From Escherichia coli (GTDB lineage: Bacteria; Pseudomonadota; Gammaproteobacteria; Enterobacterales; Enterobacteriaceae), in assembly GCF_045037415.1 (NCBI RefSeq), contig NZ_CP173438.1: 64,000 bases of DNA. One strand, 5' to 3'. The notes beneath the pieces are model-generated. The model saw nothing but the letters and a program-made list of their open reading frames with translations. It was not told where the DNA came from and searched no databases. Positions 27,265 through 30,716 of the stretch are shown in pieces. The position numbers were made by a program, and so were the translations under genes. Numbering within the stretch: position 1 is the stretch's first letter; each line of letters starts with the position of its first letter.

Positions 27265-28779
27265 TCAGGATGATTTATTCATAGCAGGAACCAACAAAAA
27301 TGCGATAAATAACAGACCACTGATTAGCAGAAAGGTATCCGAAAATGCCATAGTTTGCGCCTCCCTCAGCATCAATTGACTCAATAATTTGGTTGAAGCC
27401 AGTATTTCCGATGTCTGGTCACTTCCTCCGCGATTAAAAAACAAAGCACTTCTGGAAATGAAGTCATTCACCGTATGGGGAACAGAAACCATTTTTTCAC
27501 CCATTCTCGAAAAATGAAAATTAGTTCGATTATTGAGAATAGAGCCACACAGGGCAATACCAATCGCGCCCCCAAGATTACGTGTTAAATTAAATACACC
27601 AGAGGCTAACTTCAGCCGTTCTTTTGGAATTCCCCCCAGCGTTAATGTTACGATGGGGGCCATCGCAAACTGCTGCGAAATCCCTCTAATTGCCTGTGGA
27701 AACAGTAACTCCTGCCATCCCCATTCGTGGGTTATAGGGGTAAAAAGATACATTGAAAACACAAATCCACCCAGCCCCGCCATCAACAGCCATCGCAGAT
27801 TTATTTTTTTACTTAACCAGAAGTAAAAGGGAACAGAAAATAACTGGAAAATACCTGTTGTGCAAACGGCAAAACCTATCTCTTCGGCATTTAATCCGCG
27901 AACCCGCCCCAAAAACACAGGTATTAAATATACAGTAGAGAATATTCCAACCCCTCCAGAAAAAGAAAAAAAACATCCCAGTGTGAAATTTTTATCCTTA
28001 AAAGCATGAAGATCCATTATCGGATTGGATATTGTAAGTGTACGCGCAGCAAATAAAATAAAACTCACCAATGCCAGAACTGATGTCAGAAAAATAGTAT
28101 TATCATCCAGCCATCCCCAGCGCGCTCCTTCTTCAAGGGTATATTCCAGACATCCCAGTGTCATGGCCAACAGGATAATACTCGGATAATCAGCAACTTT
28201 CAGTAAAGAGAGATCAGGTTTATCAAAATTAACCAGAAAAGGAATACTCAAAACTAAATATATGCCAGGTAATATATTGATATAAAATAGCCATCGCCAG
28301 TCGAGGTTATCAGTGATCCAGCCCCCCAGAGTTGGCCCTAGCGTCGGTGACAGTGAGGCCAGCGCACTGACTACCGCAGCAGCCAACCCCAACTCTTTAC
28401 CCTGGTAATAAATAAACGCCGTCGTGAAAACTAAAGGGATCATGGATGCGCCAGCAGCTCCCTGTAAAGCACGAAAAAAAATCATGATCTGAATATTCCA
28501 AGCAAGTCCACACGCGATACTCATTAAAGTAAATATTCCCGCGGATAGAGTAAAAAGCCAACGAGTGGAAAATACCCGTGACAGCCACCCAGAGAGCGGA
28601 ATAACAATAATCTCAGCAATTAAATAGCTGGTCTGAAGCCAGGCCATTTCGTCTTTACCTGCGGACAGACCACCACCTATTTCATTTAGGGATGACGATA
28701 CAATTTGAATATCAAGCTGAGCAATAAATAATCCCATACACATACTGGCGAAAGCAATATGTTTACGCATAGACATCAT
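27265..28779 (-). CDS. MFS drug efflux transporter, DHA2 (EmrB/QacA) subfamily, 14-TMS type (504 aa)
   Basis: Hydrophobic multi-span protein with EmrB-like organisation; 4-bp overlap with the upstream membrane fusion protein gene. Not recognised as a K-12 gene. Confidence 0.8.
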   Translation of the reverse strand: MMSMRKHIAFASMCMGLFIAQLDIQIVSSSLNEIGGGLSAGKDEMAWLQTSYLIAEIIVIPLSGWLSRVFSTRWLFTLSAGIFTLMSIACGLAWNIQIMIFFRALQGAAGASMIPLVFTTAFIYYQGKELGLAAAVVSALASLSPTLGPTLGGWITDNLDWRWLFYINILPGIYLVLSIPFLVNFDKPDLSLLKVADYPSIILLAMTLGCLEYTLEEGARWGWLDDNTIFLTSVLALVSFILFAARTLTISNPIMDLHAFKDKNFTLGCFFSFSGGVGIFSTVYLIPVFLGRVRGLNAEEIGFAVCTTGIFQLFSVPFYFWLSKKINLRWLLMAGLGGFVFSMYLFTPITHEWGWQELLFPQAIRGISQQFAMAPIVTLTLGGIPKERLKLASGVFNLTRNLGGAIGIALCGSILNNRTNFHFSRMGEKMVSVPHTVNDFISRSALFFNRGGSDQTSEILASTKLLSQLMLREAQTMAFSDTFLLISGLLFIAFLLVPAMNKSS

Positions 28780-29807
28780 CTCTCATCAACACTGACGGTG
28801 ACGGACAGTCCCGGGCGAAGAAGTTGCTTTAATTCCTTTGCGTCGTCAAATGCAATCCGTACCGGGACACGCTGAACAATTTTGGTGAAATTGCCAGTGG
28901 CATTTTCTATCGGAATCAAGCTGAAACTGGCTCCTGTCGCTGGGGAAAGGCTTTCAATGTGACCGTGAAACACTTCCCCTTTGAGAATATCAGCACGGAT
29001 CTCAGCCTTCATTCCTGGCTTCATTCCCGCTATTTGGTTTTCTTTATAATTTGCATCAACCCACAACTCACTGACTGGTACTAGTGAAACTAACGATGTG
29101 CCGCCTTCCACCCAACTGCCTGTATGGGCGCTGCGGTTTGCGACAATGCCATCAATCGGCGCACGAACAAGGGTATATTCCAGATCCAGTAGTGCCTGAG
29201 TCAAAGCGGCCTGAACTTCTTCGATACTTGCACGTACGTTTTCTTCCTGAGCAGATAAAACTGCCAGCCGTTGCTTCTCCACCAGGAAATCGTTCGCGGC
29301 TTTGCGCTCCTTTGCTGCGACCTGCTGGTAGTCAAACCTGGCGTTATCAATAATTTGTTGCGATATTGCCGCTGATTGTGCGAGTTTTTCATAACGTTCA
29401 GTATCTCGCAGGCGCTTTTGCTCCTCATGTTTTACTGCCTGCCATGTTTCACTGGCACTTTGAATTATCGACTGCTGCATCGCAATAGTGGCTTGAATGC
29501 TTTCGAGATTGGCTTTGCTACTTTTTATTTTTGCCTCAAGCCTGGCGACATTTGCACGATAATCCCGATCATCGAGACGCAGGATAATATCGCCTTTTTT
29601 TACACTCTGATTATCGCGCACCTCTATAGCAGAAATATAACCAGAAACTTTACTTGTCACCGTGGTGATATTACCACCAATGTAAGCATCATCCGTCGTC
29701 TGTATAAATCTTCCTTTGCTTACCCACCAGATAAAAAAGACAACGCCAGCCAAAAGAATACCGATCGCTACCACCCCAATAAGCTGTTTTTTAGAAATTA
29801 TCATCAC
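28776..29807 (-). CDS. Membrane fusion protein of the HlyD/EmrA family (343 aa)
   Basis: N-terminal TM anchor, coiled-coil middle region and EmrA-like TDDAYIGGN...VKKGDII lipoyl-like motifs. Confidence 0.8.
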   Translation of the reverse strand: MMIISKKQLIGVVAIGILLAGVVFFIWWVSKGRFIQTTDDAYIGGNITTVTSKVSGYISAIEVRDNQSVKKGDIILRLDDRDYRANVARLEAKIKSSKANLESIQATIAMQQSIIQSASETWQAVKHEEQKRLRDTERYEKLAQSAAISQQIIDNARFDYQQVAAKERKAANDFLVEKQRLAVLSAQEENVRASIEEVQAALTQALLDLEYTLVRAPIDGIVANRSAHTGSWVEGGTSLVSLVPVSELWVDANYKENQIAGMKPGMKAEIRADILKGEVFHGHIESLSPATGASFSLIPIENATGNFTKIVQRVPVRIAFDDAKELKQLLRPGLSVTVSVDER

Positions 29808-29900
29808 TCTTTACACCGTATATATCCGGAAACTTGCATACGTCATATTTAAAATTTAACATGGCTTATTTGATGATTTCTGACAAAATACCTACTGTAA

Positions 29901-30716
29901 ATGACAATCACACTGCAACCCAAAGCATCACCAGGGCATCACATTATCGGACTGGATTCGGAACATCTGAATGGAGGTACAGTTCCCTGGCATAAACATC
30001 TCTATGCCCAGTTGCTTTACCCGGCTGAAGGAGTCGTTCGTGTATGGGCTGGAGAAAGCGTCTGGCTAGTGCATGCCAGCAGCGCGCTTTGGCTGCCCCC
30101 ACAAATGCCGCATAAGTTTGTTGCGACAGGCAACGTACTTTTAAAAACCGTACTGGTTTCAGAAGCGGAAAGTGAAACGCTGGGAAAAGTTTGCTTCATG
30201 ACGGGTATTTCACCCCTGTTAAGGGAATTACTAATTGCAATTAACCAACTTCCACCGTCGCAAAGTACCACAGATAAACAACAGTTACGTTTTTCAGCCC
30301 TCGAGACACTGATACTTCAGGAAATAAAAATGGGGGTGAAAATGTCACTTGAACTCCCTTGGCCAAATGATGAGCGGCTACAGCAGCTTTGTGAGAATTT
30401 GCTAAACAACCAAGGGTATCTGCCAACACTGGATAATCTAGCGGATAAAATTAACGTCAGTAGCCGTACACTCATGCGCTTATTTGTTAAAGAGACGGGA
30501 TTAACATTTCGCCACTGGGTTCAGCAAATGCACGTTATTTCTGCAGTGACGCTTCTTGATGATGGATATTCGTTGACCAAAATTGCCCATCGTCTGGGCT
30601 ATGCCTCAGCTGAATCGTTCGGCAATATGTTTAAGCGTCGAACGGGCTACTCGCCCGGTAAATTTACTCGTCGATTAACGATGCATGATTATGCAATCAC
30701 AAGACAAATGATTTAA
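29901..30716 (+). CDS. AraC/XylS-family transcriptional regulator with N-terminal cupin domain (271 aa), divergent from the efflux operon
   Basis: C-terminal double HTH (SRTLMRLFVKETGLTFRHWV...AHRLGYASAESFGNMFKRRTGYSPGKF). Confidence 0.8.
   Translation: MTITLQPKASPGHHIIGLDSEHLNGGTVPWHKHLYAQLLYPAEGVVRVWAGESVWLVHASSALWLPPQMPHKFVATGNVLLKTVLVSEAESETLGKVCFMTGISPLLRELLIAINQLPPSQSTTDKQQLRFSALETLILQEIKMGVKMSLELPWPNDERLQQLCENLLNNQGYLPTLDNLADKINVSSRTLMRLFVKETGLTFRHWVQQMHVISAVTLLDDGYSLTKIAHRLGYASAESFGNMFKRRTGYSPGKFTRRLTMHDYAITRQMI

What the first reader, a model, noticed from the sequence alone, without database searches (positions are those of the whole stretch)
27265..30716. Strain-specific efflux islet (EmrAB-like pump plus divergent AraC regulator) where K-12 carries abgRABT
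Between smrA and the McaS-like RNA/ogt there are three genes I do not recognise as K-12 core: a DHA2-family MFS transporter, a translationally coupled HlyD/EmrA-type membrane fusion protein (4-bp overlap), and a divergently transcribed cupin-AraC regulator. As far as I recall, K-12 has the abgR-abgA-abgB-abgT operon at this position; none of those proteins is present here. The islet looks AT-richer than its flanks: my rough hand counts on a few 60-nt samples gave roughly 40-47% G+C, against about 55% in nearby core genes. That fits horizontal acquisition. The unit is a complete, apparently intact regulator-pump module with unknown substrate and inducer.
Basis: partly seen in the sequence, partly recalled or inferred. 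Interest (0 to 1): 0.6.

Follow-up and report, generated by a model that had tools for sequence, protein, structure and literature searches.

The report
Accessory EmrAB-like efflux operon, E. coli
This is an intact but uncharacterised three-gene drug-pump cassette (membrane pump, periplasmic adaptor, local regulator) that about a quarter of sequenced E. coli genomes carry next to smrA; it is an ordinary accessory operon, and it does not replace the abg genes, which this strain lost in a separate deletion.

Summary
The three ORFs exist as described, and all three are intact. They are a DHA2 MFS transporter (27265-28779, minus strand), an EmrA-type membrane-fusion protein (28776-29804/29807, minus strand, ATGA overlap) and a divergent cupin-AraC regulator (29901-30716, plus strand). 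They lie in a 3.6-kb AT-richer segment (27081-30680; 44.0% GC, GC3 about 0.40, against 0.49-0.57 in flanking genes). K-12 has an unrelated 111 bp there.

- The islet is not strain-specific: 1457 of 5426 complete E. coli genomes have it.
- It does not sit where abgRABT sits. It lies between smrA and mcaS, and two strains (405 and B19429) carry both the islet and abgRABT. In this window abgRABT was removed by a separate deletion of about 5.1 kb. That deletion left abgR and abgT 3' remnants and is shared by 1171 genomes.

RefSeq marked the transporter 'frameshifted' in all 11 genomes I checked. In ten of them this looks like an artefact of a truncated Shigella flexneri reference protein.

The same cassette occurs in Citrobacter, Hafnia, Kluyvera and Salmonella, with different neighbouring genes in each. 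The closest characterised relatives are EmrAB (29-31% identity) and NimR (32%). Substrate and inducer are unknown. This is a new member of a known kind, of low to moderate interest.

The parts
27081..30680 (.). Islet: the 3.6-kb segment present here, where K-12 has an unrelated 111 bp.
   Evidence: blastn of the window against K-12 C600 and strain 405 and the junction alignments. The K-12 111 bp shows no similarity to the islet. GC is 44.0%. There are no flanking repeats and no mobility genes.
27265..28779 (-). DHA2-family (14-TMS type) MFS efflux permease, 504 aa, intact.
   Evidence: TIGR00711 at 402.9 bits, above the 230.2 cut-off. The protein is colinear with 505-aa orthologues at 82-83% identity. 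It is 29% identical to K-12 EmrB, and the nearest PDB entry is EmrB 8zal. The RefSeq 'frameshifted' flag is explained by the S. flexneri 484-aa reference.
28776..29807 (-). EmrA-type membrane-fusion (periplasmic adaptor) protein, 342/343 aa, with one N-terminal transmembrane anchor. Its stop overlaps the MFS start (ATGA).
   Evidence: Pfam HlyD_D23, HlyD_3 and Biotin_lipoyl_2. TIGR00998 at 267.5 bits, below the 390.8 cut-off. 31% identical to EmrA. Nearest PDB entry is EmrA 8zar. One hydrophobic segment at residues 8-26. The overlap was read.
29805..29900 (.). Divergent control region, 96 bp. It contains a block conserved across genera (about 29845-29895) that is the candidate promoter and operator. 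It is 21 nt shorter than in other genera.
   Evidence: Alignment with the Salmonella, Hafnia and Citrobacter cassettes. Promoter-like hexamers. Short inverted repeats. Its function is inferred only.
29901..30716 (+). Cupin-AraC regulator of the NimR-like subfamily, 271 aa. The last 12 or so codons (from 30681) are encoded by backbone DNA that K-12 also has.
   Evidence: Pfam HTH_18 plus AraC_binding/Cupin_2. 32% identity to K-12 NimR, E 4e-34. AF2 model with pLDDT 92.6, with ToxT, Rns and AraC as fold matches. Orthologues end at 262 aa. K-12 homology starts at 30681.
30787..30882 (+). McaS sRNA gene. It is not part of the islet. It marks the backbone on the right-hand side of the islet.
   Evidence: Rfam RF00115, 112.8 bits, full length.
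30890..31099 (-). abgR 3' remnant (pseudogene), about 80% identical to K-12 abgR.
   Evidence: RefSeq annotates the equivalent stretch as a frameshifted partial LysR gene.
31100..31248 (+). abgT 3' remnant. The junction of the deletion of about 5.1 kb lies at about 31100.
   Evidence: The junction is shared by 1171 complete genomes.

Best explanation
The three genes form a self-contained accessory efflux cassette. A proton-driven DHA2 MFS transporter and an EmrA-type periplasmic adaptor are co-translated from one operon. They most likely dock onto the chromosomal TolC channel and expel a toxic small molecule across both membranes, as EmrAB-TolC does. A divergently transcribed cupin-AraC regulator of the NimR type most likely binds the 96-bp spacer and switches the operon according to an unknown ligand.

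The cassette entered an E. coli ancestor by horizontal transfer into the smrA-mcaS spacer. It is now a lineage-variable polymorphism, present in about 27% of complete genomes. The loss of abgRABT next to it is a separate, later deletion.

Shown here: gene integrity, family assignments, junctions, population distribution, and the cassette's presence in different contexts in other genera. Inferred: TolC dependence, efflux function, the regulatory logic, and the direction of the insertion/deletion event.
For: Family assignments:
- TIGR00711 above its cut-off, and Pfam HlyD and AraC/cupin domains.
- The nearest solved structures are the EmrB and EmrA chains of 8zal/8zar.
- 29% identity to EmrB and 31% to EmrA over nearly the full length.
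- The adaptor has a single N-terminal transmembrane segment.

Integrity and selection:
- The MFS is colinear with 505-aa orthologues.
- Ten of the 11 full-length islets examined (this window plus ten fetched genomes) have all three ORFs intact.
- dN/dS against the Salmonella and Hafnia cassettes is 0.045-0.09.

The cassette behaves as a unit:
- The same AraC<->MFP-MFS arrangement occurs in C. freundii, S. enterica subsp. salamae, Hafnia alvei and Kluyvera, with different neighbours each time. In one case it lies beside a sil/pco cluster.

Regulator:
- 32% identity to NimR (E 4e-34). NimR is the single-target AraC regulator of the divergent MFS exporter nimT (PMC5934670).
- Acinetobacter homologues at 40-44% identity also lie divergent to an MFS gene.

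Acquisition:
- GC3 of about 0.40 against 0.49-0.57 in the flanks.
- The islet is absent from 3850 genomes that have the K-12-type junction.
- The right junction falls within about 4 codons of the point where the orthologous regulators end, so the E. coli protein finishes in backbone DNA.

Independence from abg:
- Strains 405 and B19429 carry both the islet and abgRABT.
Against: - There is no experimental evidence for any of the three proteins, and I found no paper on this locus.
- The islet has no outer-membrane factor gene.
- The adaptor scores below the curated EmrA/EmrK cut-off, and the transporter is far below the EmrB equivalog cut-off.
- There are no integrase, IS, tRNA or terminal repeats at the islet ends. 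K-12 has 111 unrelated bp rather than an empty site, so this is not a clean insertion.
- The closest non-E. coli relatives are only about 82% identical at the protein level, with saturated dS. The donor is therefore unknown.
- Within E. coli the pump genes show raised dN/dS (0.3-0.9, on very small counts). Lesions are common: IS1 insertions, a 204-bp deletion class, larger deletions and a real frameshift.
Confidence: 0.72

Rival explanations
1. The cassette is a decaying, non-functional remnant. Under this reading the transporter is a pseudogene, as RefSeq annotates it.
For: - RefSeq marks the MFS 'frameshifted' in all 11 genomes inspected.
- Gross lesions are frequent. In an evenly spaced sample of 40 islet-bearing genomes, 2 had IS1 insertions, 3 had a 204-bp deletion and 4 had large deletions. 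141 of 1457 genomes cover less than 80% of the islet.
- One of six sampled full-length loci has a real frameshift.
- S. flexneri alleles are truncated.
- Within-species dN/dS for the pump genes is 0.3-0.9.
Against: - The window ORF has 504 codons and no stop. It aligns end to end with 505-aa orthologues, including the last transmembrane helix.
- The RefSeq pseudogene span (27324-28779, 1456 nt) ends at a +1-frame TAA. Its length equals the 484 codons of the S. flexneri variant, plus the stop, plus 1 nt. That variant ends in ...AFSVPFC, which is what deleting A27338 would produce. The flag therefore reflects the choice of reference protein.
- Ten of the 11 full-length islets have all three ORFs intact.
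- Between-genus dN/dS is about 0.05-0.09.
Confidence: 0.1
2. The islet is ancestral to E. coli and was deleted in the lineage leading to K-12, B and O157, rather than acquired by the islet-bearing lineages.
For: - The islet ends have no mobility signatures.
- Backbone DNA next to the islet (the mcaS promoter and its 5' stem-loop) differs sharply between islet-bearing and islet-free genomes. The window is 81.8% identical to K-12 over 30681-31066. This suggests two old haplotypes.
- Islet diversity (dS 0.004-0.02) is similar to that of the core genome.
- S. flexneri also carries the islet.
Against: - The point where K-12 homology resumes (30681) coincides, within about 4 codons, with the point where the regulator stops resembling its 262-aa orthologues. 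A random deletion endpoint would rarely land there.
- GC3 is about 0.12 below the flanks.
- The cassette sits at unrelated loci in other genera.
- K-12 holds 111 bp with no similarity to the islet.
Confidence: 0.2
3. A single event swapped abgRABT for the efflux islet.
For: In this window the islet is present and abgRABT is absent, and the two lie within 400 bp of each other.
Against: - Strains 405 and B19429 have the islet with identical junctions and also an intact abgR-abgA-abgB-abgT.
- McaS and the abgR 3' end lie between the islet and the deletion junction.
- The counts differ: 1457 genomes have the islet and 1171 have the deletion junction.
Confidence: 0.02
4. The pump is not a xenobiotic resistance pump. 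Instead it exports an endogenous or host-derived metabolite (for example a toxic intermediate, fatty acid or signalling compound), with the regulator sensing that compound.
For: - EmrAB-type and NimT-type systems have narrow or physiological substrates (established knowledge of the families).
- The cassette is strongly conserved across enteric genera.
- The regulator subfamily is consistently paired with MFS exporters.
Against: No biosynthetic or catabolic genes travel with the cassette. Its neighbours differ in every genus. Nothing in the sequence identifies a substrate.
Confidence: 0.15

Closest known systems
EmrAB-TolC of E. coli K-12 (emrRAB; PDB 8zal/8zar)
   Same: Both pair a DHA2 MFS permease with an EmrA-type adaptor that has one N-terminal transmembrane anchor. 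The adaptor gene comes first and the genes are coupled. Neither has an outer-membrane factor gene in the operon. The alignments cover nearly the full length.
   Different: Identity is only 29% (pump) and 31% (adaptor). Both are far below the NCBIfam EmrB and EmrA equivalog cut-offs (219.5 against 925, and 206 against 563). The regulator is a divergent cupin-AraC protein rather than the co-transcribed MarR-type MprA/EmrR. The substrates are unknown.
NimR-NimT (yeaM-yeaN) of E. coli K-12
   Same: The regulator is 32% identical to NimR (E 4e-34) and about the same size (271 against 273 aa). It shares the invariant HxH...Q...H cupin motif. It is also transcribed divergently from an MFS exporter across a spacer of about 96 bp. 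NimR is a single-target regulator that binds its own spacer (PMC5934670).
   Different: NimT is a stand-alone MFS protein of about 393 aa with no adaptor. Here the target is a two-gene tripartite-type pump. At 32% identity this is a paralogue, not an orthologue. NimR is named a repressor in RefSeq, and the sign of regulation here is untested.
The same AraC/MFP/MFS cassette in Citrobacter freundii, Kluyvera, Hafnia alvei, Salmonella enterica subsp. salamae and Pluralibacter (uncharacterised)
   Same: Gene order, orientation, sizes and the coupled stop/start are identical. Identity is about 82% (MFS), 67-73% (MFP) and 77-81% (regulator). The spacer contains a conserved block.
   Different: The genomic neighbours differ in each genus. 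The regulator is 262 aa instead of 271 aa, and the spacer is 21 nt longer. GC3 is 0.46-0.50 against 0.39-0.42. None of these cassettes has been characterised either.
HxlR-MFP-MFS operon of Raoultella, Klebsiella and Kosakonia (MFS 62% identical)
   Same: It is the next-closest DHA2 pump and adaptor pair.
   Different: It is controlled by an upstream HxlR-type regulator gene rather than a divergent AraC gene, and it has additional downstream genes.

Membership tests
DHA2 family MFS efflux permeases (TIGR00711, EmrB/QacA subfamily) | A full-length match to the subfamily HMM above the curated cut-off. | tested here: met
   402.9 bits against a cut-off of 230.2. Residues 9-496 align to profile positions 3-480 of 485.
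EmrB orthologue (NF000391) | Score at or above the curated cut-off of 925 bits. | tested here: not met
   219.5 bits. 29% identity to K-12 EmrB.
EmrA/EmrK adaptor family (TIGR00998; EmrA equivalog NF011715) | Score at or above the curated cut-offs (390.8 and 563). | tested here: not met
   267.5 and 206.3 bits, although the alignment is full length. 31% identity to EmrA.
Membrane-fusion (HlyD) protein superfamily | Lipoyl and beta-barrel domains plus an N-terminal membrane anchor. | tested here: met
   Pfam HlyD_D23 (2.7e-16), HlyD_3 and Biotin_lipoyl_2. One hydrophobic segment at residues 8-26.
Tripartite MFS pump (EmrAB-TolC type) | Dependence on an outer-membrane channel (TolC or another OMF). 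| not testable with these tools
   There is no OMF gene in or next to the islet. Use of TolC is inferred by analogy with EmrAB.
AraC/XylS transcription factors with a cupin sensor domain | A C-terminal double helix-turn-helix and an N-terminal AraC-type cupin. | tested here: met
   HTH_18 at 1.4e-21 (residues 180-258). AraC_binding and Cupin_2 at residues 25-88. AF2 model with pLDDT 92.6, and Foldseek matches to ToxT, Rns and the AraC N-domain.
NimR (YeaM) orthologue | High identity to NimR and a nimT-type target gene. | tested here: not met
   32% identity. The target is an MFP-MFS pair, not nimT. The islet regulator is a paralogue within the same subfamily.
Genomic island (horizontally acquired) | Deviant composition and variable presence among strains. 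| tested here: met
   GC of 44.0% against 49.2%, and GC3 of 0.39-0.42 against 0.49-0.57. Present in 1457 and absent, with the K-12 junction, in 3850 of 5426 genomes.
Genomic island (horizontally acquired) | Mobility signatures: an integrase or IS, a tRNA target, or flanking direct repeats. | tested here: not met
   None was found. The plasmid hits are records of 0.25-4.9 Mb with predicted mobility 'non-mobilizable' or 'mobilizable'. I read them as chromosomal sequence filed under plasmids.

The most novel reading that the evidence does not exclude
The regulator belongs to a widespread, unstudied subfamily of AraC proteins that includes NimR. Its cupin domain keeps a canonical metal-site signature, HxH(x)3Q(x)6G...H. 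H33, Q37, G44 and H71 are invariant, and H31 is at least 90% conserved, across 75 sequences down to 26% identity. Members repeatedly sit divergent to MFS exporters. If the sensor is a metallo-cupin that detects a specific class of toxins (for example nitro- or aza-aromatics, as for NimR/NimT), the cassette would be a lineage-specific intrinsic-tolerance determinant. ExPEC lineages named in the hit lists (ST95-32, O25b:H4) carry it, and routine resistome screens and RefSeq annotation currently miss it.
Probability: 0.12. Interest if true: 0.5.

Novelty: new member of a known kind. Interest (0 to 1): 0.25.

Why it matters
This is an uncharacterised pump carried by roughly a quarter of sequenced E. 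coli genomes, including bloodstream and avian isolates such as GN03204 and ST95-32. K-12-centred efflux inventories do not cover it. For example, PMC7462009 looked only for the 20 K-12 pumps in strain LF82. RefSeq marks the transporter as a pseudogene, apparently because of a truncated Shigella reference protein, so pangenome and resistome pipelines may ignore it. Correcting that flag and testing the pump's substrates would be straightforward. The locus also shows that two adjacent presence/absence polymorphisms (islet gain and abgRABT loss) can look like a single replacement. None of this is conceptually new biology.

Tried and rejected
- Plasmid carriage. A PLSDB search found only E. coli records of 0.25-4.9 Mb, which I read as chromosomal sequence filed under plasmids, plus distant proteobacterial paralogues. 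Rejected.
- Terminal direct or inverted repeats, or mobility genes, at the islet ends. None found.
- The K-12 111-bp segment as a remnant of the islet. It has no similarity to it.
- A real frameshift in the MFS. Rejected for this window and for nine of the ten other genomes checked.
- Literature. Five searches (locus names, RefSeq accessions, McaS/abgR/ydaL, abgT with phylogroup B2) found nothing on this cassette.
- The genome-contig scan with the MFS protein returned only 7 loci, because it relies on exact 8-mer peptide patterns. They were Kluyvera intermedia, Paraburkholderia MFP-MFS pairs (52%/40% identity, no AraC gene) and one noisy E. coli assembly. It gave no information on other Escherichia species.
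- Foldseek of the regulator model against the PDB gave only generic AraC and cupin matches and no clue to the ligand.
- The 62%-identical Raoultella/Klebsiella pump turned out to have a different (HxlR) regulator and is also uncharacterised.
- Promoter and terminator scans gave only weak consensus matches (12 found against 7.9 expected). I did not rely on them.

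
Full report
**Observation.**
The three ORFs are present exactly as described.
- The 504-aa product of 27265-28779 (-) matches the DHA2/EmrB-subfamily model TIGR00711 over its full length, at 402.9 bits against a cut-off of 230.2.
- The 342/343-aa product of 28776-29804/29807 (-) carries the Pfam domains HlyD_D23, HlyD_3 and Biotin_lipoyl_2. 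It has one N-terminal hydrophobic segment.
- The 271-aa product of 29901-30716 (+) has an AraC_binding/Cupin_2 N-domain and an HTH_18 C-domain.
- The adaptor stop and the transporter start overlap as ATGA. A second ATG 3 nt downstream would give a 1-nt overlap, as in the orthologues.
- McaS is at 30787-30882 (Rfam, 112.8 bits).

The islet is 44.0% GC against 49.2% for the window. Its genes have GC3 of 0.39-0.42, against 0.49-0.57 in zntB, dgcM, smrA, ogt, fnr and uspE. Only 6% of 3.6-kb windows in this sequence are as AT-rich.

**Boundaries, and why this is not a replacement of abg.**
Compared with K-12 (C600), homology runs through smrA to window position 27080 and resumes at 30681. K-12 has 111 bp between those two points. 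That 111 bp shows no similarity to the islet. The islet therefore lies between smrA and mcaS, not at the abg position.

Strains 405 and B19429 carry the islet with the same junctions and also an intact abgR-abgA-abgB-abgT between mcaS and ogt. In the window, a separate deletion of about 5.1 kb joins the 3' end of abgR (30890 to about 31099, roughly 80% identical to K-12 abgR) to the last 149 nt or so of abgT (31100-31248). The junction is at about 31100. RefSeq annotates these pieces as partial LysR and AbgT pseudogenes.

**Population distribution.**
Counts are out of 5426 complete E. coli genomes.
- 1457 have the islet. 1316 cover at least 80% of it, and 1404 are at least 99% identical. It is always a single copy and essentially always chromosomal.
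- 1171 have the abg-deletion junction.
- 3850 have the K-12-type islet-free junction.

Carriers include ST95-32, O25b:H4-type strains and many blood and urine isolates. K-12, REL606/BL21 and O157:H7 lack it. Shigella flexneri has truncated alleles. 'Strain-specific' is therefore wrong; the islet is a common lineage polymorphism.

Lesions occur in some carriers: IS1 in the adaptor gene (strain E24), a 204-bp deletion that fuses the two pump genes (strain DS566 and others), and larger deletions that leave 49% or 17% of the islet.

**The pseudogene flag.**
RefSeq marks the transporter 'frameshifted' in all 11 genomes I inspected, including GN03204, which is 100% identical to the window over 5.3 kb. 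Three observations argue that the flag is an artefact.
- The window ORF is uninterrupted and aligns end to end with 505-aa orthologues, including the last transmembrane helix.
- The RefSeq span (27324-28779, 1456 nt) ends at a TAA in the +1 frame.
- S. flexneri proteins of 484 and 488 aa (for example WP_162471458.1) end in ...TMAFSVPFC. Deleting A27338 would produce exactly this ending. Also, 484 codons plus the stop plus 1 nt equals 1456 nt.

The flag is therefore best explained by alignment to that truncated reference. This is an inference from the matching coordinates. Ten of the 11 full-length islets examined (this window plus ten fetched genomes) have all three ORFs intact, and one (strain 2018-05-2CC) has a real frameshift.

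**Origin.**
The same divergent-regulator/adaptor/transporter cassette occurs in Citrobacter freundii, Kluyvera, Hafnia alvei, Salmonella enterica subsp. salamae and others. Identity is about 82% (MFS), 67-73% (MFP) and 77-81% (regulator). The neighbouring genes differ in each case, and one copy lies next to a sil/pco cluster.

The orthologous regulators are 262 aa. The E. coli protein diverges from them after about residue 256 and continues for another 12 or so codons (TMHDYAITRQMI). Those codons are encoded by DNA that islet-free K-12 also has upstream of mcaS. This coincidence favours insertion into the E. coli backbone over a deletion in K-12.

Against a simple insertion, there are no mobility genes or terminal repeats, and K-12 has a replacement segment rather than an empty site. 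Backbone DNA just right of the islet (the mcaS promoter and its 5' stem-loop) also differs strongly between the two haplotypes, which suggests an old polymorphism. I rate 'acquired' at about 0.8 and 'ancestral, then lost' at about 0.2. Outgroup spacers would decide this.

**Selection.**
dN/dS against the Salmonella and Hafnia cassettes is 0.045-0.09, with dS saturated. Within E. coli the pump genes give 0.3-0.9 and the regulator 0-0.1, but these rest on only 1-12 substitutions each. This is compatible with long-term constraint and perhaps some relaxation in E. coli. It is not conclusive.

**Mechanism (inferred).**
The nearest solved structures are the EmrB and EmrA chains of 8zal/8zar. Identity to K-12 EmrB is 29% and to EmrA 31%, over nearly the full length. 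Both proteins fall below the NCBIfam equivalog cut-offs. The pump works like EmrAB but is not EmrAB. With no OMF gene in the islet, it would need TolC.

The regulator is 32% identical to K-12 NimR (E 4e-34). NimR is the single-target AraC regulator of the divergent MFS exporter nimT (PMC5934670). Acinetobacter homologues at 40-44% identity are also divergent to an MFS gene. Across 75 family members, H33, Q37, G44 and H71 are invariant and H31 is nearly so. Together they form a cupin HxH(x)3Q(x)6G...H motif. The AF2 model is confident (pLDDT 92.6), but Foldseek returns only generic AraC and cupin matches.

The 96-bp spacer contains a block conserved across genera (about 29845-29895). It is 21 nt shorter than in the other genera. 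Whether the regulator activates or represses is unknown.

**Verdict.**
The cassette is an intact, horizontally mobile, uncharacterised EmrAB-type efflux operon with a NimR-like regulator. That makes it a new member of a known kind, of low to moderate interest. The practical by-products are the likely RefSeq mis-annotation and the finding that islet gain and abg loss are separate events.

Noticed in passing
window 27324-28779 (-): RefSeq/PGAP marks the DHA2 transporter 'frameshifted' in all 11 genomes inspected. The span ends at a +1-frame TAA that matches the C-terminus (...AFSVPFC) of truncated Shigella flexneri proteins such as WP_162471458.1. The E. coli ORF itself is intact and colinear with its orthologues, so this is a likely systematic annotation artefact.
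   Followed up: yes
window 30890-31248: abgRABT (p-aminobenzoyl-glutamate uptake and hydrolysis) has been deleted, leaving abgR and abgT 3' stubs. The same junction occurs in 1171 of 5426 complete genomes. Identity across it ranges from 100% down to 80%, so this is an old and decaying scar.
   Followed up: partly
window 30681-30882: The McaS allele linked to the islet differs from K-12 in its promoter-proximal region and its 5' stem-loop (ACCGGTCACCAGGACCCCAGGCCGG against ACCGGCGCAGAGGAGACAATGCCGG). Strain 405 has the islet-type 5' half and then K-12-type sequence from about the McaS terminator onwards (the stretch just after McaS and abgR), which suggests a recombination breakpoint near the 3' end of mcaS. 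The regulator's stop codon is 71 nt upstream of McaS +1 and no terminator is predicted between them, so read-through into mcaS is possible.
   Followed up: partly
window 1-6678 (-): A giant ORF runs off the window start. It is 2867 aa in GN03204, where RefSeq names it 'EntS/YbdA MFS transporter'. Its only NCBIfam match is the autotransporter adhesin BigA (774 bits, below the cut-off). It looks like an intact YdbA-type autotransporter with a wrong product name.
   Followed up: partly
window 7006-7584: Only a paaY fragment and a helix-turn-helix gene fragment are annotated here in GN03204. From memory, K-12 has the phenylacetate (paa) cluster near this position, but I did not check this.
   Followed up: no
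window 18865-21050: There is a frameshifted metal ABC permease gene, followed by a very AT-rich stretch (31-35% GC at 20.0-20.75 kb) with DUF1627 and tyrosine-recombinase fragments next to ttcA. K-12 C600 has intR/xisR/rcbA at the equivalent position, so this is a degraded prophage-integration scar.
   Followed up: no
L011 3827-9667 (Logan SRR7879369): In one enterobacterial assembly the orthologous cassette lies directly beside a sil/pco-type copper and silver resistance cluster (PcoE/SilE-like, CusS/R, OEP, CusF, CusB). In S. enterica subsp. salamae (L010) it lies beside a resolvase-type HTH_7 fragment. This hints at carriage on mobile resistance islands.
   Followed up: no
L002 4978-6987 and L005 1-1487: Strains 405 and B19429, which carry both the islet and abgRABT, share an IS1 insertion that splits dgcM. 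dgcM is a diguanylate cyclase gene; from memory it acts in curli control.
   Followed up: no
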